NCBI GenBank assembly: GCA_964016885.1
Contig: OZ024749.1
Location: forward strand, 16,802,001-16,866,000
Origin: Eledone cirrhosa
Taxonomy: Eukaryota
Reading direction: 5' to 3'
Length of the DNA: 64,000 nucleotides
Numbering within the stretch: position 1 is the first letter of the stretch; each line of letters begins with the position of its first letter. Shown piece after piece: positions 4,365 to 54,300 of this stretch. The translations under genes were made by a program, and so were the position numbers. The notes under the pieces were generated by a model. That model saw only the letters and a list, made by a program, of their open reading frames with translations, did not search any database and was not told the DNA's origin.

Positions 4365-7097
4365 TGGGGATTCTTTTCTTTGTTTTTGTGCCTCTCCTTT
4401 GATCTGTCGTACGCCATTTTGTTTCTGTGTGTGTGTTGTGTGCTCAGTCTGCGCATGCGCCACATCCGGCTGTCTGTGTGTGTTTATATTCGTTTATTTA
4501 TTTGTTTATTTACATGTTAATTGTAAGTTGTGATGTTGCTGTTCCACTCATATTTTCTATTTAATTTTGGTTGTAATTCTTTTATGTTTATTGCCTCTGT
4601 GATTTGTCTAAACATTGCGTCTTTTCTGTGTGTAGATTCTATTTTTATTTCTATGTTCTCTAATTTACCCTTATGTTCTATTTTAGCATATTGGTAGAGT
4701 ACAGATGATTCTTTACTATCTTGAAGGTCTCGCCAGTGTTCATTTATCCGTTCCCTTACACTACGAGCTGTCTCACATATGTACACTATATTTTTGTCTC
4801 TACATTGTCCTTCATTACATCTTATGCTATACACTACATTTCTAGTTTTACAGTTAATATGGGGGCTTATTTTACAGGTTATACATTTCTTATCTATACA
4901 GGGGTCTTTGAAAAGGGTATGTCTTGCTAATAAGTGTTTTTACGGAGGTACCTGGTCTTTCTACTATCTTAATATTGAGTTTATGTTTATCTAGGCCCTT
5001 CTAAATTTGTAAGCTAATTCACCTCTAGGGGTTGTATCGATGAACATTACACTCTGGTATTTATTGCTATCATACCATGAGTTTATTCTATTAGCCTTAT
5101 TCCTAGTTCTTTCTATTCTATTCCAAAATTTGCTCCTATACAAAGGGCAGGTCTCATTTGTGTCATTATTTACCATTTTTTCCCATTTGGTTCTGGCTCC
5201 TCTATACACTCTGATTTTATCTCTCTGATTGTAACCAGAGAACTGCATGCGGTGGATGAAGTATTGTATGTGTCTCTCTAGTTCTTCGGGGTTGCACATG
5301 CGGGACACGTTTCTCATCACCCGTATCATCAAATCCGCAATCAGTATGTTGATTTTGGTATGGTCCGAAACAGCTGAGTTTCGGTGGATCAGATGTTTGG
5401 AAGTCATGGGTTTGGTATAATGGGAATGGAGGATTTGTTTTTTGTTATTAATGATATCTAACCAGAGCTCTGTGTCTAGTACAGGTAATCGATGGTTGGG
5501 GTGTTTACCTGGGTAGTCTATAGTAACTCTAATACTCTGGTGGATGGAGTTAGCTATTTGCTGGCTGCTTTCCATTGTGTTTTTCTCTAATTCCTGACTG
5601 TTCTCTAGTGGGGGTGTTTTAACTACGATGTTTATATCATCAACGTAGCGGGAGTACATTATCAGGGTTAAGGGGTCTTCTAATTGTTCTTTAAGTTTAA
5701 GTTTAAGTCTACTGTCCCACCATACCATGAATAAGTTAGCTATGTCGCCTGCAATGCTAACACCAATGACTGCTCCTTCCTCTTGGGCATATGTTTTTCC
5801 ATTAAATTTGAACATATGTTCCTTAAGGGTTAGTTTTATGCTGGCCCCTACCGCATGTGCAATCATTTTCTTCAGTTCATCGTGGTTTTCGGGTGTCTTT
5901 ATGGCTCTGGTCCACCCGTTCCATCTAACTGTGGGTTTTCTTGGCCATTGAGGTAATGGTAGGTGGTCTGCCTCTTGCTGGTCTTGTAGGGCACAGGTTG
6001 TTAAGGTCATATGTGTCTAGGTAATTATTACACATATGACCTTAGCAACCTGTGCCCTACAAGACCAGCAAGAGGCAGACCACCTACCATTACCTCAATG
6101 GCCAAGAAAACCCACACAGATAGATGGAACGGGTGGACCAGAGCCATACGGACACCTGAAAACCACGATGAACTGAAGAAAATGATTGAACATGCGGTAG
6201 GGGCCAGCATAAAACTAACCCTTAAGGAACATATGTTCAAATTTAATGGAAAAACATATGCCCAAGAGGATGGAGCAGCCATTGGTGTTAGCATTGCAGG
6301 TGACATAGCTAACTTATTCATGGTATGGTGTGACAGTAGACTCAAACTTAAACTTAAAGAACAATTAGAAGACTCCTTAACCCTTGAGGTGAATTAGCTT
6401 ACAAATTTAGAAGGGCCCTAGATAAACATAAACTCAATATTAAGATAGTAGAAAGACCAGGTACCTCCGTAAAAACACTTATTAGCAAGACATACCCTTT
6501 TCAAAGACCCCCCTATATAGATAAGAAATGTATAACATGTAAAATAAGCCCCCATATTAACTGTAAAACTAGAAATGTAGTGTATAGCATAAGATGTACT
6601 GAAGGACAATGTAGAGACAAAAATATAGTGTACATAGGTGAGACAGCTCGTAGTGTAAGGAACGGATAAATGAACACTGGCGAGACCTTCAAGATAGTAA
6701 AGAATCATCTGTACTCTACCAACATGCTAAAATAGAACATAAGGGTAAATTAGAGAACATAGAAATAAAAATAGAATCTACACACAGAAAAGACGCAATG
6801 TTTAGACAAATCACAGAGGCAATAAACATAAAAGAATTACAACCAAAATTAAATAGAAAATATGAGTGGAACAGCAACATCACAACTTACAATTAAGGAC
6901 AAAATGAAAACACACACACACATAGAACAAACAACCAACCGGTAACATGTAAATAAACAAATAAATAAACGAATATAAACACACACAGACACCCGGATGT
7001 GGCGCATGCGCAGACTGAGCACACAACACACACACAGAAACAAAATGGCGTAGGGCAGAACAAAGGAGAGGCACAAAAACAAAGAAAAGAATCCCCA

Positions 7098-7601: not shown

Positions 7602-7790
7602 GATAAATATACCAAAAGTTTACGGTAGTGTCCAATCCGTATGAAGAACTCAATGTAATCCGGATAGCATGAAAAGAGAAGATGCATTCAAAAACTACTT
7701 TCGGTGAAAAATAAACGGAAAACAGAGTCAAGATAAATTAATAAAATAATGAATAAACAAAGAAATAGTTCCTTATATTAAGAAAAATTC

Positions 7791-7928
7791 ATCATTTTAT
7801 GATCGTTTCTAGGATATATATGTGTTAGAGTTGGTATGCATATTCTATAGATCTATGTACAATATTTTCACAAACTATCAGAGGGAATATACATACCTAC
7901 ACATATATATGCTGTCTTCAGAAATAAT
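7791..7928 (-). ncRNA. Long-stem-II hammerhead (mirror of 13014-13151, ATA site)
   Basis: Reverse complement of the 13014-13151 motif with few substitutions. Confidence 0.65.
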
Positions 7929-8639
7929 GATATTTGTTTATTGAAAAAAACAAAGATTCAATACAATAGGTCTGTTTGGGAACAGGTTTTGAATTGACCA
8001 ATAGAGAGATAGTGAGGGTCAAGATAGTAATATAGTAGTAGAAGAACCTTAAATTATGGGTAGAGGAAGGTAGATTTCAGTTTTGGATGGAAAAGAGTAT
8101 TATGAATGAAGGATTATTTTAGGGAAGAAAATAGGTCGTATGCTGACCTCAGAAATAATTTTATTTGTTCATTGAATAAAACCAACAAAGATCTAATATA
8201 TTCTGTCTGTTTGGTAAGAGGTTTAGAATTAACCAATAGAAAGTTAATAATTGGCCAAATGGTAAAATAGTAGTAATTGAAGCTTATTTTAGGGGTGAAA
8301 ATAGGTCAGGTCAGTAAAAGGTATACAAGCAGTTGTTGTTATAAAATAGTAATGCCAATGCAAATATCTAAGAAGACTAAAGTTTTACGATAAGAGTGTT
8401 AGTGAAAAAAATACATCTATGAAAAGAATATAAATTAATTTAATTGATGTGTATATTTATATTGATAAAATTATACTAATACATATAGATATGATAAATA
8501 AGAGTTAGATGCAGTTGAAAAGTGCTGTTAAAGATGAGGGGAAATTAAAAGAATATAAAAATAATATATATATATATATACACACACATATATATATATA
8601 TATACACATACACATTTACACACATATATATATACACAT

Positions 8640-8691
<52 letters not shown>

Positions 8692-11600
8692 GCATATATA
8701 TATACATACATATATATATACACACACATACACACTTACATATACATATAATTATTGGGGGGGGAGGTTAAATTTATTAGTGAGAAATAATAAATATATA
8801 TAGATTTCAAGGAACATAGATTCATAACCTGAAGTTAAAGCATTATATGGTATCAGTTTTAGGAAATGATAGTTGTAAGAAGGAAAGTAAAATTATGTAG
8901 TTCTTCAGTCGTAGAATATTAATTATAGGTTAACTAAATTAAAAACAGTTTATATATTAAATTCTAAAGTGTATATTAATTAGGTTTATAATATTTAAAG
9001 GTTTTTCTCAGTTTATGATTACACGATATTATTAATTCCTGTCGCTTATTTAATAGGATATCCTTAGATTTCATTATTTCAAAAAGTTCCTGGGAACATA
9101 ATCTACATTCATATCTACTATTTTGATAAGGGGTGGCCCTTTTGAGCACACTCCAGGTCAGGTCATAATCTATATTCCTCTTTCTATAACTATTAATTAT
9201 TTCAGCTAGAGATGTTGTATTCGCTAGTGCGGCATTTTTAAAACTATGTTTGTGGGTATTAAATCTTACCTTAAATTTGTTAGAGGTAGCTCCTATATAT
9301 GAATAAATTGAGTCCTTAGTGTTAACTTTACATTTATATACTATGTTATTAACAAGGCAATTTCCTTTTAATGGACAGTTTGCCTTGTTTCTACAGTTGC
9401 AACTTTTCGTGAATGCTGTATCTGAGGAGATATGGTTAGTTTGATGTACTGGTGGTATACTCATGTTTTTTTTTACATTTATATGCATTATAGGCACTTA
9501 TATTTTGTTTTGTGTTTTTGGTTGTTGAGTAGGAGAATTTAACCGTTGATCAATTTAAAATTTGATGGTATTTGTGGTTTGGCGGGAAGTTTTTCTCTAG
9601 GATATTAAAGAATTTTTTAGGTATATTATCCTTAATTTGTAAATTAAATGGAGCATTATACCAAGTAACTCGTCTATTACGGTTTCGATGTTGTTTATTG
9701 TTTTTATAGGATGCATCCTGATGTTTATTAAGAGAATTATTGTTAATGACCTCACCACACACACTTTTAGTTAGATTTATTGATTTAGGTGTTTTAGCTT
9801 GTTTATTAGGAGTTTTATTATTAACATTTATTAGAGTTGTATGATGAGTAGTTTTTTGAGAGTTACTATACTGTATATTAGAAGAGTTAGAGAAATTTGG
9901 TTTTATGTTGGTGTTTTGGGGTATAGTGTGAGTGGCATTTAGGTGTGTATGTTTCATTTGGTGTTTGTTGGTAATATTAGGTTGTATGTTTTTATTGTTA
10001 TTGGTAGAAGGTATATATACTAATTTATTTTTGTGGCCACTTCTAGCTAGAGCTTCGTTATAAAAGGTCGCATTTTTATCAAATACATCTTGGTTAGACG
10101 AAAGGTTAGAAATTCTAAGTGATATATTATATGCGAGGTTTTTAAGGATAGATTTAGGGTGATTAGATTGTGAGTGTATGTAGTGTAAATTTTGGCTGGG
10201 TTTATGGTAAGGTTGGTAGATACCCGTAGATAAGTCTAATGTTATATCTAGGAAATTAACTACTTTACTTGTGTTTTCAAATGTAATATCTAGACTATAA
10301 TAGTCTTTAAGGAAAGTTCTAATAAGCTTTTTATTTTTTTCTATCTCTGAGAGGCTAAGGTTATTGGAAAGAAGAAGACAGTCGTCACGATATAAACCAC
10401 CTTTAAGGTGGGGAAAGGAAGCATTTATGTTAAAAAGAAGAAAGAGGCCCACAAGATCAGTAATTTGGGCAGAATCGCTTGAGCCCATAGTAATATCGAA
10501 TAGATTACTATATGTGTTTCTGGTCCAGTATTCATTCTGAAATTCAAATAGTGTTAGTCTAGCATGTGTAATAATATTAATGTCATCCAAAGTTAAGTTA
10601 GATCTACTTTTACCAAATATCAAGGCTTTGTTCAGGAGTATAGGTGATATAGAAGAATAATAATTATCTATATCAAATTGTAGAAATGAAGCAGAGGATT
10701 TATTTCTAATATTATTAAACCAGTTAATTACCTGGGATGTGTTTTCCCAGAGTGGTAAATTAACATGTTTTCTTAGTTGTGGGATGACTCTATCTAAAAT
10801 TTTTTTACTAATTATTCCAATATCAGATTTGGAAGGGCATATAAGCCTTATAGAAGGATTAGAGTTAAAGGTAGATTTATGATCTTTCAGGTTGAAGTGT
10901 GGTCTTTTCAATGCCAAAGGTTCAGTTCTATCTTCAATATTAAGTCTATTCACTATGCTGTGTGTTTTGTTGTTGATGTTGGTAAGTGACGCATTGTTTG
11001 TTTTTCTATAATTTTTCCTGAGTTCTTTATATATGAACTCATTGTAATTTTCAATGTCCATGTGATATAGATTTCCAGTTTTGTCCACTCGGAAAAAAAC
11101 TACTCATCATACAACTCTAATAAATGTTAATAATAAAACTCCTAATAAACAAGCTAAAACACCTAAATCAATAAATCTAACTAAAAATGTGTGGAGAGGT
11201 CATTAACAATAATTCTCTTAATAAACATCAGGATGCATCCTATAAAAACAATAAACAACATAGAAACCGTAATAGATGAGTTACTTGGTATAATGCTCCA
11301 TTTAATTTACAAATTAAGGATAATATACCTAAAAAATTCTTTAATATCCTAGAGAAAAACTTCCCGCCAAACCACAAATACCATCAAATTTTAAATTGAT
11401 CAACGGTTAAATTCTCCTACTCAACAACCAAAAACATAAAACAAAATATAAGTGCCTATAATGCATATAAATGTAAAAAAACCATGAGTATACCACCAGT
11501 ACATCAAACTAACCATAATATCTCCTCAGATACAGCATTCACGAAAAGTTGCAACTGTAGAAACAAGGCAAACTGTCCATTAAAAGGAAATTGCCTTGTT

Positions 11601-13013
11601 AATAACATAGTATATAAATGTAAAGTTAACACTAAGGACTCAATTTATTCATATATAGGAGCTATCTCTAACAAATTTAAGGTAAGATTTAATACCCACA
11701 AACATAGTTTTAAAAATGCCGCACTAGCGAATACAACATCTCTAGCTGAAATAATTAATAGTTATAGAAAGAGGAATATAGATTATGACCTGACCTGGAG
11801 TGTGCTCAAAAGGGCCACCCCTTATCAAAATAGTAGATATGAATGTAGATTATGTTCCCAGGAACTTTTTGAAATAATGAAATCTAAGGATATCCTATTA
11901 AATAAGCGACTGGAATTAATAATATCGTGTAATCATAAACTGAGAAAAACCTTTAAATATTATAAACCTAATTAATATACACTTTAGAATTTAATATATA
12001 AACTGTTTTTAATTTAGTTAACCTATAATTAATATTCTACGACTGATGAACTACATAATTTTACTTTCCTTCTTACAACTATCATTTCCTAAAACTGATA
12101 CCATTAAGTAAACATATATAATGCTTTAACTTCAGGTTATGAATCTATGTTCCTTGAAATCTATATATATTTATTATTTCTCACTAATAAATTTAACCTC
12201 CCCCCCAATAATTATATGTATATGTAAGTGTGTATGTGTGTGTATATATATATGTATGTATGTATATATGCGTGTATATATATATATATATGTGTGTGTA
12301 TGTGTATATATATATATGTGTGTAAATGTGTATGTGTATATATATATATATATATGTGTGTATATATATATATATTATTTTTATATTCTTTTAATTTCCC
12401 CTCATCTTTAACAGCACTTTTCAACTGCATCTAACTCTTATTTATCATATCTATATGTATTAGTATAATTTTATCAATATAAATATACCCATCGATTAAA
12501 TTAATTTATATTCTTTTCATAGATGTATTTTTTTCACTAACACTCTTATCGTAAAACTGTAGTCTCCTTAGATATTTGCATTGGCATTACTATTTTATAA
12601 CAGCAACCGCCTGTATACCTTTTACTGACCACCTGACCTAGTTTCACCCCTAAAATAAGCTTCAATTACTACTATTTTACCATTTGGCCAATTATTAACT
12701 TTCTATTGGTTAATTCTAAACCTCTTACCAAACAGACAGAATATATAAGATCTTTGTTGGTTTTATTCAATGAACAAATAAAATTATTTCTGAGGTCAGC
12801 ATGCGACCTATTTTCTTCCCTAAAATAATCCTTCATTCATAATATTCTTTTCCATCCAAAACTGAAATCTACCTTCCTCTACCCATAATTTAAGGTTCTT
12901 CTACTACTATATTACTATCTTGACCCTCACTATCTCTCTATTGGTCAATTCAAAACCTGTTCCCAAACAGACCTATTGTATTGAATCTTTGTTTTTTTCA
13001 ATAAACAAATATC

Positions 13014-13151
13014 ATTATTTCTGAAGACAGCATATATATGTGTAGGTATGTATATTCCCTCTGATAGTTTGTATAAATATTGTACATAGATCTATAGAAT
13101 ATGCATACCAACTCTAACACATATATATCCTAGAAACGATCGTAAAATGAT
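13014..13151 (+). ncRNA. Type I hammerhead with ~105-nt stem II
   Basis: attattt-CTGAAGA-[atatatatgtgt/acacatatatat; ggtatgtatattc/gaatatgcatacc]-GAAA-CGATCG-TA-aaatgat. Confidence 0.75.
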
Positions 13152-13203
13152 GATTTTTTTAATATAAGGAACTGTTTCTTTGTTTATTCATTATTTTATT
13201 AAT

Positions 13204-13247
<44 letters not shown>

Positions 13248-13252
13248 TTATA

Positions 13253-13283
<31 letters not shown>

Positions 13284-13316
13284 TTATATATATATATATA
13301 TATATACATATTTATA

Positions 13317-13347
<31 letters not shown>

Positions 13348-13396
13348 GTATATATATATATATATATACATATATATATCTATATATATACATATA

Positions 13397-13480
<84 letters not shown>

Positions 13481-13604
13481 TATATGCATATATATATATA
13501 TATATATACATATATATATGTATATATATATATATACATATATATATGTATATATATATATATACATATATATATGTATATATATATATATACATATATA
13601 TATG

Positions 13605-19935: not shown

Positions 19936-21438
19936 TCAGTGATATGCTTTCTTACATCTATGTATACATCTGTGTTTAGATAAATGACTACTTTCAAAGA
20001 ATGATTTTCCACAGATATCGCAGTGGTATGGCTTATCTCCTTTATGGGTACGTATGTGAGACATTAAGGAACTACTCCAAGAGAATGATTTACCACAGAT
20101 ATCACAATGATATGGCTTGTCTCCTGTATGTATATGTTTGTGTGTAATTAATTGACTACTTTGACAGAATGATTTACCACAGATTTCACAGTGGAATGGC
20201 TTGTCTCCTGTATGTGTACGTTTGTGGGAAGTTAAGTGACCACTTTGAGAGAATGATTTACCGCAGATATCACAGTGATATGGCTTGTCTCCTGTATGGG
20301 TATGTTTGTGAGTAGTTAAGGCACTACTGACAGAGAATGATTTACCACAGATATCACAGTGGTATGGCTTGTCCCCTGTATGTATACGTAAGTGTTTAGT
20401 TAAGGTACTACTTTCAGAGAATGATTTACCACAGATGTCACAGTGATATGGCTTGTCTCCTGTATGGGTACGTTTGTGAGTAGTTAAGGCACTACCATCA
20501 GAGAATGATTTACCACAGATAGCACAGTGATATGGCTTGCCTCCTGTATGTATACGTTTGTGGGTAGTTAAGTGACTACTAACAGAGAATGATTTACCAC
20601 AGATATCACAGTGATATGGCTTCTCTCCTGTATGTATACGTAAGTGTTTAGTTAAGGTACTACTTTCAGAGAATGATTTACCACAGATATCACAGTGATA
20701 TGGCTTCTCACCTGTATGTGTACGTTTATGACTAGTTAAGGCAATACTGACAGAGAATGATTTACCACAGATATCACAATGATATGGCTTGTCTCCTGTA
20801 TGTATACGTTTGTGTTTAGTTAAGGTGGTACTATCAAAGAATGATTTACCACAGATATCACAGTGGTATGGCTTGTCTCCTGTATGTATACGTTTGTGGC
20901 TAGTTAAGGTAGTACTATGAGAGAATGATTTACCACAGATATCACAGTGGTATGGCTTGTCTCCTGTATGGGTACGTAAGTGTTTAGTTAAGGTACCACT
21001 TTGAGAGAATGATTTACCACAGACATTACAGTGGTATGATTTCTCTCCTGTATGGGTACGTTTGTGAGTAGTTAAGGTACTACTATCAGAGAATGATTTA
21101 CCACAGGTATCACAGTGATATGGCTTGTCTCCTGTATGTATACGTTTGTGTCTAGTTAAGGTACTACTATCAGAGAATGATTTACCACAGATATCACAAT
21201 GATATGGTTTGTCTCCTGTATGTGTACATTTGTGGCTAGTTAATGATTTACCACAATATGGCTTCTCTCCTGTATGCATAACTTTGTGAGTAATTAAGGT
21301 ACTACGTTTATTGAATGATTTACCACAGATATCAGAGTGATATGGCTTCTCTTCTCTAACTTTTGTCATTTCACCAGGAATACTTAACACTTTAGATTGT
21401 GTTTCACATTTAATCTTCCCAGTCAACATATTTTCCAT
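19936..21438 (-). CDS. Tandem C2H2 zinc-finger protein (15 intact fingers, 2 degenerate N-terminal fingers), single coding exon
   Basis: 84-bp period; CxxC-x12-H-x3-H with TG(E/D)KPY linkers; 500-aa ORF. Confidence 0.95.
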
Positions 21439-21938
21439 GATTTTTTCTTCAACAGAATATACAAATGTTTTACTTGTACAAATGTTTTACTTATACAAAA
21501 GTTTTACTTATATTTCTTATATTATATTCCTAAAAATATATCTTCTATATTTCCCTCAACTGTGATTTCAGTTAATATCTGAAGATAATACAAACTTATG
21601 TTTCATCCAAGTTTAGTGAAAATACAAAATAATCTCATAGTGATAAAAATAAACTCAGTTCTGAGGAAATATTTCACAGTAATTGAACTATAGATTTATA
21701 TAAACAGTGTCATATAAGTTCTGTTTAAAATGTTTTAGTCTTCAAATGATGATAAATATAGTTGATGTATCCAAGATTGAAAATAATAATTTATCCCACT
21801 GTCATCTGGTATTCTGAAATGAAAAAGAAACAGTATGAGATAATAGAGAATACTTTAGAAGCAGAGATAGATTTAACAGTGGAAATTTTATATTTCTATA
21901 TTGATAAACTGTAGATATATATTTCTTACAAGATATAC

Positions 21939-39597: not shown

Positions 39598-39685
39598 TCC
39601 TCTTGATAAGTTGGCAGACCTCGCAGGGACTCTATATCTTTGATATATTGTTTTTGTTTATGCCACGAAACTACGTAGTCGAGGA
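39598..39685 (+). ncRNA. Type I hammerhead, U3-A8 core variant, extended stem II, in an ORF-less ~345-bp insert between (TA)n tracts
   Basis: tcctc-TTGATAA-g t TGGCA..TGCCA c-GAAA-CTACGTAG-TC-gagga. Confidence 0.8.
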
Positions 39686-46003: not shown

Positions 46004-46927
46004 TATTAGTGACTATCAGAATAGTATATCTAGGACTACATTATCTAATGTACAGTATAGTAGTTAGTATTAGTGGTTATCAGACATAGTGTATCTAGGA
46101 CTACATTATCTAATGTACAGTATAGTCTTTAGTATTACTGGCTATCAGACATAGTGTATCTAGGACTACATTATCTAATGTACAGTATAGTAGTTAGTAT
46201 TACTGGCTATCAGACATAGTATATCTAGGACTACATTATCTAATGTACAGTACAGTAGTTAGTATTAGTGGTTATCAGACATAGTATATCTAGGACTACA
46301 TTATCTAATGTACAGTATAGTCTTTAGTATTACTGGCTATCAGACATAGTGTATCTAGGACTACATTATCTAATGTACAGTATAGTAGTTAGTATCAGTG
46401 GCTATCAGACATAGTGTATCTAGGACTACATTATCTAATGTACAGTATAGTAGTTAGTATTAGTGACTATCAGATATAGTGTATCTAGGACTACATTATC
46501 TAATGTACAGTATAGTAGTTAGTATTAGTGACTAGCAGACATAGTGTATCTAGGACTACATTATCTAATGTACAGTAGTTAGTATTAGTGGTTATCAGAC
46601 ATAGTGAATCTAGGACTATATTATCTAATGTACAGTATAGTAGTTAGTATTAGTGGCTATCAGACATAGTGTATCTAGGACTACATTATCTAATGTACAG
46701 TAGTTAGTATTAGTGGTTATCAGACATAGTGAATCTAGGACTATATTATCTAATGTACAGTATAGTAGTTAGTATTAGTGGTTATCAGAAATAGTGTATC
46801 TAGGACTACATTATCTAGTGTACAGTACAGTAGTTAGTATTATTGGCTATCAGTCATAGTGTATCTAGGATACATTATCTAATGTACAGTAGTTAGTATT
46901 AGTGGTTATCAAACATAGTGTATCTAG
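46004..46927. repeat. Minisatellite, ~14.5 copies of a 65-bp (variant 60-bp) unit
   Basis: tattagtggttatcagacatagtgtatctaggactacattatctaatgtacagtatagtagttag. Confidence 0.97.
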
Positions 46928-46939
46928 TTCATTTCAGCC

Positions 46940-49877
46940 AACCAGTTCATTTATAAAGAACTCAGAAAAAACTACAAAAAAACTAGCACCACCACGCTGA
47001 CATCCTTAAACAACACATCGTGTGATATAGTAAAAAAAACTCCATATTGAGGATAGAACGGAGCCATTCACACCTAAAAGCCCGCACTTCAACCTGAAAG
47101 ACCACAAATCTGCATCGATTCTTACTATTCTTCGATTTCTCCAATTCTCTTAAACAAAGCACTGATTTTCGCCAGAAATAGATCGGATTTATCTACTGTG
47201 GAAATCAACATTATAACTCACGCTAGAAAAACCTTACTAAACTTCCAAGAAGAACACTGGACAAGAAACACAGATAACAACTTACTCGATATAACGATGG
47301 GCTCCATGGACTCTGCTCAAGTTACAGACTTCGTTGGACTATTTCTCCCCTATAATATTCATTCCCCTTTTCCCCACCTCAAAGGTGGTCTATATCGTGA
47401 TGATTGTTTATTGATATCTAACATTCTTAGCAATTCTAATATAGAGAAAAACAAAAAACAAATTAGAAGATTCCTCAAGGACTATTACCACCTTAATATC
47501 ACCTTTGAAAACACCTCAAAAGTAACCAACTTCCTTGACATTACCTTAGACCTCTCTGTAATATTTATCAACCTTACCACAAACCCAACCAGAATCTACA
47601 CTATGTACATTCACGCTCTAACCACCCTGGCTCTATACTCAAAAACTTAGTATACAACATATCTCTTAGACTTTCTAAATTATCTTCCAATGAGGATATA
47701 TTTTATAAAAATGCACCTTTCTACAACGAGGCCTTAACTAGAAGTAGATATAAAAAAAAAATTTCATATATCCCCAGCACTACTATGGACCACACTACAA
47801 AACCTAGCAAAAACTACAAACACCAAAAAGTACCATCGAAACAAATGCCTAATGGGGTCATTCCTATCACACCAAACAACCGAAAAACCACAACAACTAC
47901 ACGATCTATGACCAATGTTATCAACTCACATATGACTACCAAACATTCAAAATCTCATGATCTACCCAATAATAACACCAAATACAACCACTGAAATTTA
48001 CCAAAATCCACAAATTCAAATACTGACCATAGGAACTCTTCTAGAACACAGCACATTATTATAAATGAGAAGAAGAACTTAACTAAAAACCGCAAAAGAA
48101 ACATAACATGTTACAACGCACCCTTCAACCTGCAAACTATTGGACAAATCCCCCCAAAATTCTTCGAAATTCTACATAAACATTTTCCACCAAACCACAG
48201 GTACCACCAAATATTTAACAGGTATACTGTCAAATTCTCATACTCTACATCAGACAATCTCCAACGGAAAATAAGCAACTACAACATTTATAAATTTTAA
48301 AATAATATGACCACACCACCACAACATCATTTAAATAAGACTGCACCTCTTAAAAGGACAAATAATACAATTATTCAACATAGAAAACACAACCACCCAA
48401 ATTACCAACACAAAAACAACATAACACAAAATCACAATACAACCCCAGCACTAAATCACCCACAAAGCAGCACTTATTCTCTCTCTAACATTAATTACAA
48501 TAAGAATAGCTCCAGGATTAATGAGAATTATGTAGGTACCTCTAACAACCATCTTACGTATGGTTGTAATTGCAGAAATAGAAGCGCTTGCCCCTTAAAT
48601 GGCAACTGTTTGATTAATAATGTAATATATAAATGCACTGTGTCTACTACTGACTCCAACAAATCGTATAGAGGATCCTCATCGAACACATTTAAGAAAA
48701 GATATTACGCACACTCCAGTAGCTTTAACAATACTAAACTAGCTAACACCACATCTTTGGCTGAAGCAGTAAATAACTATAAAAAGAAAAAAATAGATTT
48801 AAAACTATCATGGAATACCATTCTACAAAGAACTCCATATCTTGGGAACAGGAGAGAATGCAGATTATGTTCCGGTGAGATCTTGGAAATTACCAATTGT
48901 AAAGACGATTTATTGAATAAACGACAGGAATTGATTATAGTTTGTAATCACCGTATACCAAAAACATTTAAATATTATAAACCTAACTAAACATTCTAAA
49001 TAGCAGCTCACTGTAGCTCTATGTGACAAACCTTTCTATTTATATCCCTTTCTCCTAATTATACGCCTTCCTGTTAATTGTTTAACCTTTTAATTTTTTA
49101 GCTTCCATAGATTCGTGTATTACTGACTATTATATTACATTATATTATATTAATATATTATTGTATTTAATTATCTTATTATAATTTTAATATTTTAATA
49201 TACTATCCTTCCTAATTATGACCATTAACTTATTTATCTATATTTATTCTAGTTATTTCCGTATATCTCATATTTCTTTATTTATATTCACCTAAAACAT
49301 CCTATTCAACACAACTATACATTTTTTTTTTAAATTTTACTCCACCATCTACATTCCGCTATCAACACAATCCCCCTTTCTCTATAAGTAATTCTATTTT
49401 TAACACCATTCAACCTTTCCTTTCAAAAGGTCATGACCTTAGCTAGAGTGAGTTATATTTCGTCTTAACATCATTTGGCAAAACACCATTTGATTGGTTT
49501 ATTCTTCGTATGCCTCCAAATAAGGTCATAGAACGCAATTTACTATTGAATAAAATTCTCATTGCTTTTGACAACGGCTGATAAAATGCACGTAGGTAAA
49601 TATTTTCCTAATTTGATATATTGTAACTAACCTTACATAGATCGATAACGAAATATGCGTACGATGTATTATTATCACCTAAAACGATCGTAAAGCAGTG
49701 AAGTATTTTCCTAATGACTTAAATTTTTATTTCATTGTTTTAACTTATATCATGACTCTGTTTTACTTTTAATGTTTTTTGAATTTCCGGGATTTATTTT
49801 AACCTACAACATTTTCAACATATGGATTACATTGAGTTGTTCATGCAGACCCCATAACTAACTGTGGATATTTCTGT
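46940..49877 (+). mobile_element. Decayed PLE related to 7605-13206
   Basis: ORFs 47198-47650 (ITMGS, GGLYRDD) and 48307-48990 (CNCR..CPL, ends KTFKYYKPN). Confidence 0.9.
49561..49699 (+). ncRNA. Long-stem-II hammerhead homologue (U3-A8 core, G12A)
   Basis: attgctt-TTGACAA-[tgataa/ttatca; aatgca/tgtatt; cgta/tacg]-AAAA-CGATCG-TA-aagcagt. Confidence 0.65.
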
Positions 49878-50767: not shown

Positions 50768-53554
50768 TTATACTTCTCTTAGGTCAGTGTTGTTTGTTTG
50801 GGTGTTGTTGTTGTTCCACTCATTCTTTCTGTTTAGCTTTGGTCTTCTAATTTCTATTTCACTGGCCTCTCTGATTTGCCTATCTGCTGGGTCATTCCTA
50901 TGTTTAGATATTATTCTAATTTCTATGTTGTCTATGTTACCGTCATGATGTTGTCTAGCATGTTCGTATAGTACTGACCCGTTTTTTCGTCCTTTTAGTT
51001 CCCCCCAGTGTTGGTCTATCCTTTCACCTATGCTACGAGCTGTCTCACCTATGTATGTTGTTGTCGTGTTTCTGCAAGTACCCTCTGTACATCTTATGCT
51101 ATAGACTACGTTTCTAGTTTTACAGTTTATCCGGGGGTTCACCTTACATATGATACATTTCCTATTGGTACAGTGGGTTTTCTTAAAAGGGTAGGTTTTG
51201 CTGATCAGGGATTTTATGGTGGTTCCTGGCTTTTCTACCACCTTTATTTTTAAGTGGGTCTTTCTCAGGGCCTTTCTACACTGGTTAGCTAATTTCCCTC
51301 CAGGGGTGGCGTCCACAAACATGACACTCTGATATCTCTGGTTGTCGTACCATGATGTGGCCTTCCCTATCTTATGTCTAGCCCTATCTAAGCTATTCCA
51401 TGATTTGCTCCTGTATAGTGGGCAAATTCCTTTCATGTCCAGTTCTATGAGGGTCTTATACTTTTCCATGGCTCCTTCGTATACTCTGACTCTGTCTCTT
51501 TGGTTGTAGCCAGAGAACTGCATGCGGTTGATGAAGTGTTGGATGTGTCCTTCCATTTCTGTTGGGTCGCACATGCTGGACACATTCTTCATCACTCGTA
51601 CCAAATCTGCGATCAGAATATTAAACTTAGCACTACTGGACATTGCTGAGTTTTTGAGTATCAGGTATTTGGACGCCATGGGTTTAGCATAGTGTGAGTG
51701 GAGAATGTGGGCTCTCTCGTCTATAGTGTTAATCCAGAGTTCTGTGTCTAATACAGGTAGTCTATTGTTAGGGTGTTTGGAAGGGAAGTCTATAGTTACA
51801 GTTATACTCTGGTGTATGGAATTAGCTATCTGCTGGATGCTTTCCATCGTGCTACGTTCTAAATCAAACTTGTTAGTGCTCTCTAGTGGGGGTGTTCTTA
51901 TAACTATATTGATATCGTCTACATAACGAGAGTACATGATGAGGTCTATGGAGCTTTCATTAAGGAGATCTTTAAGTCTCCTTTCCCACCATACCATGAA
52001 AAGGTTGGCAACATCGCCAGCTATGCTGACGCCGATGGCTGCTCCCTCATTTTGGGTGTAGATTTTCTCATTGAACTTAAATATGTGGCCCTTTAGGGTA
52101 GTTTTGATACTAGCCCCTATTGCATGTGCGACCATTTTTCTTACCTGATCAGTGTTTTGGGGGGTCCGTATAGCTTTGGTCCACCCAATCCACCTTCCTA
52201 TGGGAGTCTTTTTAGCCATTGAGGTTATGGTGGGGGGTCTACCTCTTATAGGTCTACTCGGGCAGAGACATCTAAGGTCATGGCTGTCTAGGTAGTCAGT
52301 GTCGTAGGTAAGTCTAAGTAGGAGGCCCAGTTCGTCTGTGTCGACGTCGCAGAACTCCACCTCACTCTCAATAATCATCTCCACACATCTTTTCACAGCA
52401 AGATCAATGTTAATGGATGGGTACAGTGACACCACATCCATGCTGCCTATTATGCAGTTGGATAGGCTCCTGTTTTTGTTGCACTCACTGATTCTGCTGA
52501 GGAGGTCCTCTGTACTTTCACATACATCTGGGGACATCTTGATTATGGGGCGTATAACCATTGAGAGGAAGTAGGAGATCCTGTAGTTGCTAGCTATATT
52601 AGCTCCGCATACAGGTCTTGTTGGTGGTCCTGTTGTCGGGTCGTCGACTGTCTTGTGGTCTTTGCGGAGCCCATACAAGGGTGGTATGCCATTGTTAGAC
52701 GCCTGGAAGTTGTTGGCAGTGCGTCTGCTTGGCTTTAGGATGTCAGTCCACATCATCATGTGAGCGTTGAGGATTTTTTCTCTCCCATCGTGTGTTAGTT
52801 GTGCAACTTCGCTCGTGTTGGTGATGTGGGGTTGCATTGCCTCGATGTAGTTCGGCATGCTATCTATTGACATCCTACCAGACTTATCTGTGGGTAGACA
52901 CACTACCTCACCATCCCTTGTGCGCTGCTTGAGGCTAACCAAGCCTTCTACAGGTTTTATCCCAAGTTGTTGGGCCTCTGGTCTGCTCTGTCTCATAGTG
53001 TACCTGTCTACTACTTGTCTAATCTTATTTCTAGCTATGGTGAACTGTGCCTCCGTCTCGTCATCTATTTGTTGTGGTATGCAAACTCTTTTATTAAAGG
53101 GTAACCTCGTAGGATAGATATTACCCATCTTATATGTTTTGTCAGCTGGGTTGAAAAATAGTTTCTCTAAGGGGTTGTCGTTATTTCTATCGTCATAGTT
53201 GTGTGTGTTGCTATTATTATTATCATGGTGGTTGTTGTTGTTTCTATCATTAGCATTAATATTATTATTGTTATGATTGCTAGATGTATTGTTGTTTACT
53301 TCACCGTTATTGTTGTTGTTGTTACTGCTATTTCTACCATTGTGGTTGTTACTATTATTATGTTTCTTGTTTTTGTTGATGTTGCTACATGTACTATTTC
53401 CATTATTACCACTGTGGTTATTGTTGTTGTTGTTGTTCGTATTGTTACCGTTATTACTACTGTGGTCACTGTTGCTGTGTCTGTGGTTAACGTTTCTATT
53501 ATTATTATTATTGTGGTTGTTGTTGTTCTGTCTATCGCTAGTATTATTACCAAA
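50768..53554 (-). CDS. PLE polyprotein, 5'-truncated: Asn-rich region, RT, Cys linker, GIY-YIG
   Basis: 786 aa from Met 53128 ([39 protein letters not shown]); the frame reads open ~140 codons further upstream. Confidence 0.88.
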   Translation of the reverse strand, partial: FGNNTSDRQNNNNHNNNNNRNVNHRHSNSDHSSNNGNNTNNNNNNNHSGNNGNSTCSNINKNKKHNNSNNHNGRNSSNNNNNNGEVNNNTSSNHNNNNINANDRNNNNHHDNNNSNTHNYDDRNNDNPLEKLFFNPADKTYKMGNIYPTRLPFNKRVCIPQQIDDETEAQFTIARNKIRQVVDRYTMRQSRPEAQQLGIKPVEGLVSLKQRTRDGEVVCLPTDKSGRMSIDSMPNYIEAMQPHITNTSEVAQLTHDGREKILNAHMMMWTDILKPSRRTANNFQASNNGIPPLYGLRKDHKTVDDPTTGPPTRPVCGANIASNYRISYFLSMVIRPIIKMSPDVCESTEDLLSRISECNKNRSLSNCIIGSMDVVSLYPSINIDLAVKRCVEMIIESEVEFCDVDTDELGLLLRLTYDTDYLDSHDLRCLCPSRPIRGRPPTITSMAKKTPIGRWIGWTKAIRTPQNTDQVRKMVAHAIGASIKTTLKGHIFKFNEKIYTQNEGAAIGVSIAGDVANLFMVWWERRLKDLLNESSIDLIMYSRYVDDINIVIRTPPLESTNKFDLERSTMESIQQIANSIHQSITVTIDFPSKHPNNRLPVLDTELWINTIDERAHILHSHYAKPMASKYLILKNSAMSSSAKFNILIADLVRVMKNVSSMCDPTEMEGHIQHFINRMQFSGYNQRDRVRVYEGAMEKYKTLIELDMKGICPLYRSKSWNSLDRARHKIGKATSWYDNQRYQSVMFVDATPGGKLANQCRKALRKTHLKIKVVEKPGTTIKSLISKTYPFKKTHCTNRKCIICKVNPRINCKTRNVVYSIRCTEGTCRNTTTTYIGETARSIGERIDQHWGELKGRKNGSVLYEHARQHHDGNIDNIEIRIISKHRNDPADRQIREASEIEIRRPKLNRKNEWNNNNTQTNNTDLREV

Positions 53555-54300
53555 TAAAGGTGGTAGAAAAGCCAGGAACCACCATAAAATCCCTGATCAG
53601 CAAAACCTACCCTTTTAAGAAAACCCACTGTACCAATAGGAAATGTATCATATGTAAGGTGAACCCCCGGATAAACTGTAAAACTAGAAACGTAGTCTAT
53701 AGCATAAGATGTACAGAGGGTACTTGCAGAAACACGACAACAACATACATAGGTGAGACAGCTCGTAGCATAGGTGAAAGGATAGACCAACACTGGGGGG
53801 AACTAAAAGGACGAAAAAACGGGTCAGTACTATACGAACATGCTAGACAACATCATGACGGTAACATAGACAACATAGAAATTAGAATAATATCTAAACA
53901 TAGGAATGACCCAGCAGATAGGCAAATCAGAGAGGCCAGTGAAATAGAAATTAGAAGACCAAAGCTAAACAGAAAGAATGAGTGGAACAACAACAACACC
54001 CAAACAAACAACACTGACCTAAGAGAAGTATAAATAAATAAGTAAATTAAATTAAATAAAATAAGATAAATAAATACATACACAAGCACATAAACACACA
54101 CTAGTCACCCAGCAGACACAACACTATACACACTAGTCACACATCACACATAACACTATACACACACGCAAACGCATGCGCAAAGAAGACAAAATAAAAT
54201 AAGATAAACAAACAAGCAAATAAATAAATAAATATATAGACAGACTGAACAAAAAAAAATGGCGTAGACATACAACACAACAGGAGGAACAATGAATATA

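What the first reader, a model, noticed from the sequence alone, without database searches (positions are those of the whole stretch)
13014..13151. ~105-nt stem II conserved in structure, not sequence, between two diverged PLEs
Seen: this motif and 49561-49699 share ACGATCGTA, stem II length (105 vs 106 nt) and position before the ORF-start tail. Stem I covaries (attattt/aaatgat vs attgctt/aagcagt), and stem II helices are rebuilt from different sequence, with a shared acatagatc in the apical part. Known PLE HHRs are typically minimal. Inference: the long arm has its own function, such as RT binding or a tertiary contact. The 49561 copy has G12A and is probably inactive.
Basis: partly seen in the sequence, partly recalled or inferred. 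Interest (0 to 1): 0.7.

Follow-up and report, generated by a model that had tools for sequence, protein, structure and literature searches.

The report
Long-armed hammerhead in Hydra retrotransposon
A self-cutting RNA motif at the end of a Penelope-like jumping gene carries a folded side arm four to nine times longer than in its relatives, kept in two distantly related subfamilies, so the arm probably holds a signal of its own, possibly a splice site.

Summary
The feature is real: a type I hammerhead with a 105-nt helix II arm in a Hydra-clade Penelope-like element. There are three copies (13011+, 7931-, 49559+) from two sister subfamilies, which share 58% amino-acid identity and are near saturation at fourfold sites. 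Arms in related Hydra loci are 12-24 nt. The title is half wrong. Only the basal 8 bp covary (2-3 double changes, none broken). The middle and apical arm is conserved in sequence (70-73 of 99 positions overall), with 0-1 compensatory changes and 6-7 of 23 pairs broken. Whole-arm covariation is not significant, but fold stability is kept beyond drift. Best reading: a one-time insertion into helix II whose base serves the ribozyme and whose distal part carries a leader signal. Boldest reading: an 88-nt intron ending at G12. No activity or transcript data. New variant of a known kind.

The parts
13011..13020 (+). Copy A, stem I 5' strand (10 bp with 13145-13154)
13021..13027 (+). Copy A, core C3-A9 (CUGAAGA)
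13028..13132 (+). Copy A, 105-nt helix II arm: basal helix 13029-13037 with 13123-13131 (covarying, conserved C-C mismatch), middle helix 13045-13057 with 13097-13109, apical domain 13063-13092
13043..13053 (+). 5'-splice-site-like motif (GT at 13046), 9 of 11 matches to the U1-complementary consensus; function not shown
13112..13133 (+). Branch-point-like CTCTAAC (13112-13118) and CCTAG whose G is G12; candidate 3' end of an 88-nt intron; speculative
13133..13144 (+). Copy A, G12-A15.1, minimal stem III with palindromic loop, U16.1, A17; predicted cut between 13144 and 13145
13145..13154 (+). Copy A, stem I 3' strand
13188..13199 (+). Copy A, downstream repeat of the stem I 5' strand; forms a 12-bp helix over the cut site that competes with stem I
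12636..12805 (+). Older partial tandem duplicate (about 75% identical) of the region upstream of the hammerhead, ending at the base of the arm; holds a 5' half-ribozyme only
11400..11975 (+). GIY-YIG endonuclease part of the inverted, 5'-truncated copy that carries hammerhead A
9550..11103 (-). Hydra-type RT, thumb and N/H/T-rich linker, 5'-truncated, open frame of 517 codons
8976..9497 (-). Hydra-type GIY-YIG endonuclease, in a separate frame piece from the RT
7788..7931 (-). Copy A', same long-arm hammerhead in the other half of the inverted insertion; G16.2 changed to A and two changes in the apical helix; probably impaired
7647..7729 (-). Tail hairpin of A' (Hydra-type closing stem, 71-nt interior), 46 nt from the (TA)n junction
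47078..48990 (+). Decayed Hydra-type RT-EN of subfamily B in four frame pieces, 5'-truncated
49559..49701 (+). Copy B hammerhead: stem I 9 bp, U3-A8 core (49568-49574), arm 49575-49680/81, G12 missing, predicted cut site 49692/49693
49593..49603 (+). 5'-splice-site-like motif in arm B (GT at 49596), 9 of 11
49732..49743 (+). Copy B, downstream repeat of the stem I 5' strand, with the matching A-to-G change; 15-bp competing helix
49754..49838 (+). Tail hairpin of B (73-nt interior), 41 nt from the (TA)n junction

Best explanation
This is the pseudo-LTR hammerhead of a Hydra-clade PLE. About 85-90 nt were inserted once into the normal 12-24-nt helix II in the ancestor of subfamilies A and B. Shown: the arm folds on its own; its basal 8 bp are kept as pairs with changing letters and so act as helix II; the distal part is kept as sequence. 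Inferred mechanism: in a tandem array this region is the 5' leader of the next copy. During transcription the arm folds first and brings the two core halves together, and the lengthened stem I (9-10 bp against 3-7 in relatives) closes the larger unit. Because stem III is minimal with a palindromic loop, cleavage probably needs a dimer or the element's protein. About 40 nt later a repeat of the stem I 5' strand can take over the 3' strand, which switches an uncut RNA off or releases the cut product. The distal arm is not part of catalysis and is not the main RT site. It most likely carries a leader signal read as sequence, and the best-defined candidate is a 5' splice site (about 0.2-0.25 on its own), ahead of a protein-bound internal loop or a DNA promoter element.
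For: Clade and single origin: DKT, CxCX5C, CxxC..E and N..CxH motifs and the tree. Arm size: 18 of 20 endonuclease ends in the fetched loci have a hammerhead within 84-217 nt, arms 12-24 nt (L010 taken because the regex started early); 26 published Hydra rows have 12-26 nt (counted by hand). Selection: fourfold sites 37 of 94 identical against 31.5% at saturation; arm z 5.6; stability reached by 9 of 2000 and 0 of 2000 neutral simulations. Basal pairs: 2-3 doubles, 0 broken in 8. Paired and unpaired positions are equally conserved (51/70 and 21/29). U3-A8 swap shows core selection in lineage B (known variant, PMC4209133). Competing helix: z -2.9, -2.5, -3.6; 18, 7 and 7 of 300 shuffles, against 32-300 of 300 in 13 relatives; stem I probability falls from 0.88 to 0.002 (A), 0.93 to 0.0 (A') and 0.98 to 0.47 (B) when the downstream sequence is included. 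Donor-like site: 151 and 45 of 5000 shuffles, 14 of 1075 window tiles; best score 8 of 11 near 13 short-arm relatives.
Against: Only two lineages, so no real covariation test. Across the arm, 24 of 37 pairs are kept (780 of 2000 simulations as high) and 3 doubles are seen (145 of 2000; 478 of 2000 from B). Optimal alignment of AT-rich DNA inflates identity (59/94 in an unrelated flank). The whole non-coding end is expanded in this lineage (EN stop to core 578-1055 nt against 84-217; tail hairpin interior 71-73 nt against mostly 8-17), so the arm may be passive accretion. The donor and the competing helix were noticed by eye and tested afterwards. All folds are predictions; there is no cleavage, probing or transcript evidence. 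The base of helix II starts with a C-A (or C-U) mismatch, and no fetched relative has A before G12 (0 of 15 distinct arms), so even copy A may cut poorly.
Confidence: 0.55

Rival explanations
1. Tolerated passenger. The arm is neutral accreted sequence that persists only because it must fold back for the core to assemble. Helices evolve slowly, so no further function is needed.
For: Whole-arm covariation is not above neutral simulation. The 3' UTR, the tail hairpin and the RT-EN linker are also expanded. Hammerheads of other elements in the window have arms of 18, 26 and 57 nt, so arm length is loose. Published descriptors cap stem II at 7 bp and loop 2 at 10 nt (PMC4209133 supplement file 2), so long arms may be common and unseen.
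Against: Unpaired positions are as conserved as paired ones, and 6-7 of 23 distal pairs are broken without compensation. Length is kept to within 1-2 nt despite about 7 indels and near-saturated fourfold sites.
Confidence: 0.3
2. The arm holds an 88-nt spliceosomal intron from 13046 to 13133. The unspliced RNA carries the long-arm ribozyme and is the copied template. Splicing joins the exon's last G to AAAC, which rebuilds G12 and leaves a 17-20-nt arm of normal size or a disabled ribozyme in the mRNA. This is a specific case of the best explanation.
For: Conserved donor-like site at 9 of 11, where the +4/+5 changes in B break helix pairs but keep the score. TAG at both ends and a branch-like CTCTAAC 16 nt before the AG in A. 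The exonic part of A folds into a 5-bp tetraloop hairpin. A before G12 is absent from 15 of 15 distinct related arms. D. virilis Penelope has a 75-bp leader intron (PMC2377424 passages) whose end changes helix I of its hammerhead (PMC4209133).
Against: B has no AG there as it stands, and whether it had one depends on how the lesion is read. B has no branch-like motif at the matching place; its CTAAC lies 31 nt after the donor, before a shared CATAG that would give a 44-45-nt intron. Pyrimidine fraction before the AG is only 0.65. The residual hairpins are weak (z -1.1 and -0.3). The donor is buried in a helix in A. An extra nucleotide before GAAA is allowed in published descriptors. Intron interiors are not normally conserved (recalled), yet the apical arm is.
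Confidence: 0.2
3. One reading: the arm binds the element's RT/EN protein or makes a tertiary contact that activates the ribozyme.
For: The apical internal loop with UAG on its 3' side and the basal C-C mismatch are conserved. The Anolis PLE hammerhead cleaves only with its protein in vitro (PMC11167929).
Against: Relatives have no long arm. A separate hairpin near the 3' end is shared across the clade (13 of 35 core matches in the loci) and sits 34-46 nt from the end in the 5 cases measured. In Anolis the needed RNA and the start sites lie downstream of the hammerhead. Stem I has no bulge for a loop II contact.
Confidence: 0.12
4. Chance fold of AT-rich, microsatellite-like DNA.
For: The basal helix of A is (TA)/(TG)-rich, and Rfam finds no hammerhead in 12990-13200 (17 weak matches).
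Against: Descriptor 2 against 0 in 20 shuffles; folds hold against dinucleotide shuffles; B is not repetitive; stem I and the core covary; the position 3' of the endonuclease matches the clade.
Confidence: 0.02

Closest known systems
Hammerheads of Hydra-clade PLEs (Craig et al. 2021, PMC8557442, File S2), including Hydra-1_Obim
   Same: Type I fold in the pseudo-LTR 3' of a C-terminal GIY-YIG domain, (TA)n targets, mismatch-prone base of helix II, same protein motifs.
   Different: Arm 105-107 nt against 12-26 nt (23 nt in Hydra-1_Obim, hand count); stem I 9-10 bp; stem III cut down to A15.1-U16.1 plus one pair around a GAUC loop; ACGATCG stem III word absent from that supplement. A different family from Hydra-1_Obim.
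Minimal dimer-dependent PLE hammerheads (Cervera and de la Pena 2014, PMC4209133)
   Same: Short palindromic stem III, extra nucleotide after A9, U3-A8 variant as in Schistosoma Cercyon elements.
   Different: Their descriptor allows at most 7 bp of stem II and 10 nt of loop 2, so this motif would not be found by it.
Drosophila virilis Penelope leader (75-bp intron next to the hammerhead; PMC2377424, PMC4209133)
   Same: A short intron in the pseudo-LTR leader that alters the ribozyme, if the donor here is real.
   Different: There the intron ends at the 5' side of helix I and splicing is shown; here it would lie inside helix II, end at G12, and is untested.
PLE-X1_sMoe hammerhead (Selaginella; PMC8557442 File S2)
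   Same: An enlarged helix II arm in a PLE, marked non-canonical.
   Different: About 54 nt with a 35-nt loop (hand count); different clade.
Discontinuous Clec2 hammerhead (as described in PMC6765202 passages)
   Same: Core halves separated by a long insertion.
   Different: A mammalian mRNA 3' UTR, several hundred nt, not a retroelement; that it is type III with the insertion in another stem is recalled.

Membership tests
Hydra-clade PLE | C-terminal GIY-YIG endonuclease after the RT | tested here: met
   Domain order; Pfam found no family for these four frames, so the call rests on homologues and motifs.
Hydra-clade PLE | DKG changed to DKT | tested here: met
   VDKTG in element A; this part is missing from B.
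Hydra-clade PLE | CxCX5C linker | tested here: met
   Present in A and B, absent from 2 of 2 other PLEs of the window that were checked.
Hydra-clade PLE | No CCHH motif; CxxC and CxH around the conserved E and N | tested here: met
   CxxC..E and N..CxH in A and B; one Cys only between VY and YIG in A.
Hydra-clade PLE | RWK motif at the N-terminus | not testable with these tools
   Both elements are 5'-truncated.
Hydra-clade PLE | Insertion into (TA)n | tested here: met
   3' ends abut (TA)n.
Hydra-clade PLE | RT groups with Hydra references | tested here: inconclusive
   Tree of 25 rows separates A, B and relatives from two other PLEs of the window, but holds no named reference and the outgroups are long branches. 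The hammerhead of L007/L014 matches Hydra-2_Amil by eye.
Type I hammerhead ribozyme | Core C3-A9, G12-A15.1, U16.1, H17 | tested here: met
   Complete in A; A' keeps these but loses the C15.2-G16.2 pair; B has U3-A8 and lacks G12.
Type I hammerhead ribozyme | Three helices with stem I open | tested here: met
   stem III minimal.
Type I hammerhead ribozyme | Paired 10.1-11.1 at the base of helix II | tested here: not met
   C-A in A, C-U or C-A in B. U-U at this place occurs in 4 of 15 related arms and in natural active hammerheads (PMC3088659 passages), so the pair is typical and not strictly required; C-A is untested.
Type I hammerhead ribozyme | Self-cleavage after H17 | not testable with these tools
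   Needs an assay.
Canonical fast hammerhead | Loop II to stem I tertiary contact | tested here: not met
   Unbroken stem I and distant arm tip in predicted folds; as in minimal PLE hammerheads.
Spliceosomal intron | Conserved GT donor consensus | tested here: met
   9 of 11 in A, A' and B; post hoc.
Spliceosomal intron | Conserved branch point, pyrimidine tract and AG | tested here: inconclusive
   Present in A; AG and branch motif not present at the matching place in B.
Spliceosomal intron | Spliced transcripts | not testable with these tools
   No eukaryotic reads or transcripts on hand.

The most novel reading that the evidence does not exclude
Helix II of this retrotransposon ribozyme contains a spliceosomal intron whose 3' AG supplies the catalytic G12. 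Splicing and self-cleavage then act on the same nucleotides: the intron-retaining RNA folds the long-arm ribozyme, while splicing swaps in a short arm. With the downstream competing helix this would sort transcripts into template and mRNA, and give a testable handle on why PLEs keep their introns and what their hammerheads do.
Probability: 0.2. Interest if true: 0.78.

Novelty: new variant of a known kind. Interest (0 to 1): 0.46.

Why it matters
The role of PLE hammerheads and the reason PLEs retain introns are both open (PMC8557442 and PMC2377424 passages). A long-arm variant shows that published searches, which cap helix II near 26 nt, would miss part of the diversity. It also gives a natural construct with separable parts (arm, competing strand, tail hairpin) for cleavage, splicing and RT assays. 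If the arm is only a passenger, it is a modest catalogue entry. The clade-wide tail hairpin seen along the way may be the more general result.

Tried and rejected
Rfam: no hammerhead among the 150 of 239 matches shown for the window or the 17 for 12990-13200; the miRNA hits are microsatellite noise below gathering scores. Pfam named nothing in the four Hydra frames. A covariance model from the three copies found only those three as strong hits in the window plus 15 loci; the other 16 of 19 matches scored 31.5 bits or less and lay in the window. Arm-to-tail kissing: no duplex of 7 bp or more shared by A' and B. Tail as ORF start: not supported. Competing helix and donor as clade-wide features: not found in 13 short-arm relatives (L002 was cut by the contig end, and the script stopped before the last window entry, 50493). 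Pairwise covariation across the arm: not significant; the tool's shuffle control (2 of 500) is not a probability with two lineages, and the MAFFT alignment misplaces the basal pairs. The expanded tail hairpin does not fold better than shuffles (z -1.2 and +1.6). Three longer-arm hits in the loci (165, 196 and 53 nt) were dropped: weak folds, and antisense to the endonuclease or downstream of the true hammerhead. Relationship of the 39603 hammerhead to A and B: unresolved. Host name: a paper search for the zinc-finger motif found nothing. Names and sources of the nearest proteins stayed unchecked. Lunse et al. 2017 and the Terminon paper were not held, so long arms reported there would be unseen. 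Supplement file 1 of PMC4209133 was not searchable. Viral and metagenome contig collections stayed unchecked.

Full report
Observation. A descriptor scan of both strands parses copy A as stem I 13011-13020 with 13145-13154, core 13021-13027, arm 13028-13132 (105 nt), GAAA, a CGAUCG palindrome and U16.1-A17, and copy B (49559-49701) with a 9-bp stem I, a 106-nt arm and AAAA in place of GAAA. Self-comparison shows a third copy, A', at 7931-7788 on the minus strand, in the other half of an inverted insertion (11094-13575 against 9857-7353). Outside the TA tracts the halves differ at 7 of 974 and 16 of 813 aligned positions. A' has lost the C15.2-G16.2 pair and B lacks G12, so only A has a complete core. 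The arms fold at z -5.5 and -4.1. A long-arm descriptor hits twice in the window and never in 20 locally shuffled windows. Rfam does not recognise the motif.

The element. The flanking frames encode an RT followed by a GIY-YIG domain with DKT, CxCX5C, CxxC..E and N..CxH motifs. These are the features given for the Hydra clade in section 11 of PMC8557442. A search gave 82 relatives at E 1e-20 or better. A and B share 321 of 553 aligned residues, and their fourfold-degenerate sites match at 37 of 94 against 31.5% expected at saturation. In a 25-row RT tree they are sisters (99/99), so the long arm arose once. The host is probably an octopus; this rests on my recollection of the zinc-finger repeat at 19936-21486 and on Hydra elements being listed for O. 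bimaculoides, and no call confirms it (one search found nothing).

How unusual the arm is. A scan of prokaryotic genome contigs returned 15 loci encoding relatives; I take them to be host DNA in symbiont assemblies (inference). Of 20 endonuclease 3' ends in them, 18 have a hammerhead within 84-217 nt, with arms of 12-24 nt; one end lies at a contig edge and one has none. The scan allowed arms up to 250 nt; its three longer hits were weak and misplaced and were dropped. The 26 published Hydra rows have 12-26 nt by hand count. Other hammerheads in the window have arms of 18, 26 and 57 nt. The published minimal descriptor caps stem II at 7 bp and loop 2 at 10 nt, so the belief that PLE hammerheads are small is partly built into the searches. 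Paper searches showed no report of such an arm, but two key papers were not held.

Structure against sequence. The arms align at 71 of 99 paired columns, z 5.6, 0 of 2000 shuffles, comparable to endonuclease coding DNA and unlike the upstream flanks (local alignment 0 of 1000 against 989 of 1000 upstream). Over 2640 co-optimal alignments the basal 8 pairs show 2-3 double changes, 1 single and none broken, while the 23 middle and apical pairs show 15-16 identical, 0-1 double and 6-7 broken; paired and unpaired positions are equally conserved, 51/70 and 21/29. Against neutral simulation, pair retention (780 of 2000) and doubles (145 of 2000; from B 514 and 478) are not significant, but overall stability is (9 and 0 of 2000). 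So the title holds for the base of the arm and for stem I (2 doubles, 2 singles, none broken) and is reversed for the rest. B also swaps C3-G8 for U3-A8, a known natural variant (PMC4209133), which shows that its lineage kept a selected core until this copy decayed. The loss of G12 can be read as G12A or as a one-base deletion.

First, 40-45 nt after the cut site both subfamilies repeat the stem I 5' strand, with the matching A-to-G change in B. This forms a 12-15-bp helix over the cut site (z -2.5 to -3.6; 18, 7 and 7 of 300 shuffles, against 32 or more of 300 in 13 relatives). With it, predicted stem I occupancy drops from 0.88 to 0.002 in A, 0.93 to 0.0 in A' and 0.98 to 0.47 in B. Second, a tail hairpin closed by GCUC and UW-GAGC follows the hammerhead in relatives (13 of 35 core matches, many of the rest being chance cores or elements ending early) and lies 34-46 nt from the (TA)n junction in the 5 cases measured. 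A' and B have it with a 71-73-nt interior that does not fold better than shuffles. Third, the arm has a donor-like site at 13046 and 49596 (9 of 11; 151 and 45 of 5000 shuffles; 14 of 1075 tiles), and no short-arm relative exceeds 8 of 11 nearby (over a somewhat shorter span). In A a branch-like motif and an AG ending at G12 would close an 88-nt intron, and the exonic remainder folds as a 5-bp hairpin. B lacks the AG and a matching branch motif, so this stays a hypothesis. All three features were found by eye and tested afterwards.

Mechanism. Shown: the fold, its retention, basal covariation, single origin and rarity. From established knowledge: short palindromic stem III motifs cleave poorly as monomers and work as dimers (PMC4209133; PMC6765202); the pseudo-LTR is the promoter and leader of the next tandem copy and can carry a short intron (PMC2377424); in Anolis the hammerhead needs protein and RT starts downstream of it (PMC11167929). 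Inferred: the arm folds first and presents helix II, the long stem I closes the unit, the downstream strand gates or releases it, and the distal arm carries a leader signal. I give this 0.55, passive accretion 0.3, RT binding or tertiary contact 0.12 and artefact 0.02. The intron reading, a special case of the first, gets 0.2.

What I read. PMC11167929 and PMC4209133: parts 1-2 of 4 of the text, plus passages of supplement file 2 of the latter. PMC8557442: passages, section 11, supplement parts 1, 2, 52 and 53 of 59 and motif searches. bioRxiv 10.64898/2026.07.22.740005: part 1 of 5 and passages. PMC6765202, PMC2377424, PMC3846280, PMC6155905, PMC7229834 and PMC3088659: passages only. The splice consensus, hammerhead numbering and octopus motif are recalled.

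Verdict. A real, selected, oversized helix II in a Hydra-clade PLE hammerhead: a new variant of a known kind. Interest 0.46, rising to about 0.78 if the intron that ends at G12 is shown.

Noticed in passing
L001, L005-L010, L013; window 7647-7729 (-) and 49754-49838 (+): Conserved Hydra tail hairpin (GCUC stem, two-base bulge, GAGC-ACU) between the hammerhead and the element end; a second GAGCACU lies just before the ATG in L001, L008 and L010. Candidate RT recognition or initiation element; one paper search found nothing on it.
   Followed up: partly
window 39598-39684 (+): Another type I hammerhead with U3-A8 core, 57-nt arm (z -3.9) and 4-bp palindromic stem III in a roughly 350-nt fragment between (TA)n tracts. 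It shares an exact 13-mer with arm B (0 of 1000 shuffles), but its flanks do not align with A or B and it lacks the donor GT. If it is a relative, this counts against the intron reading.
   Followed up: partly
window 7102 (+) and about 4360 (-), 19523 (-), about 26810 (-), 50493 (-): Short-arm minimal hammerheads of other PLE families; the 19523 and 26810 copies share a GGTATGTCA motif upstream of the core.
   Followed up: no
window 12636-12805 (+) and 8139-8296 (-): Partial duplicate of the upstream region ending at the base of the arm; holds a 5' half-ribozyme that might mark a template jump at the hairpin.
   Followed up: partly
window 12218-12374 and 8560-8750: A TA/TG microsatellite inside the 3' UTR, present in both halves of the inverted insertion, so it was copied as part of the element RNA.
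   Followed up: no
window 9700-10000 (-) and 47780-48560 (+): N/H/T/K-rich expansions in the RT-EN linker, reminiscent of the asparagine-rich inserts in rotifer Penelope ORFs (PMC3846280 passages); 50768-53596 also has an N-rich start.
   Followed up: no
window 46004-46927: 65-bp tandem satellite abutting the 5' end of element B.
   Followed up: no
window 19936-21486 (-): Long C2H2 zinc-finger array of octopus type (recalled).
   Followed up: partly
window 5981-6065: Near-perfect 85-nt palindrome at the inverted junction of another PLE (4991-6016).
   Followed up: no
L001-L015: Hydra-type PLEs sit in bacterial MAG and symbiont assemblies in GTDB, probably as host contamination; seven loci come from one MAG.
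   Followed up: no
L004 1178 (-) and 3382 (-): A GTAAGT or GTAAAT donor-like word overlaps the stem I 3' strand, with a CTAAC and CTAG about 90 nt later in the 5' copy; possible leader intron in another Hydra family (by eye).
   Followed up: no
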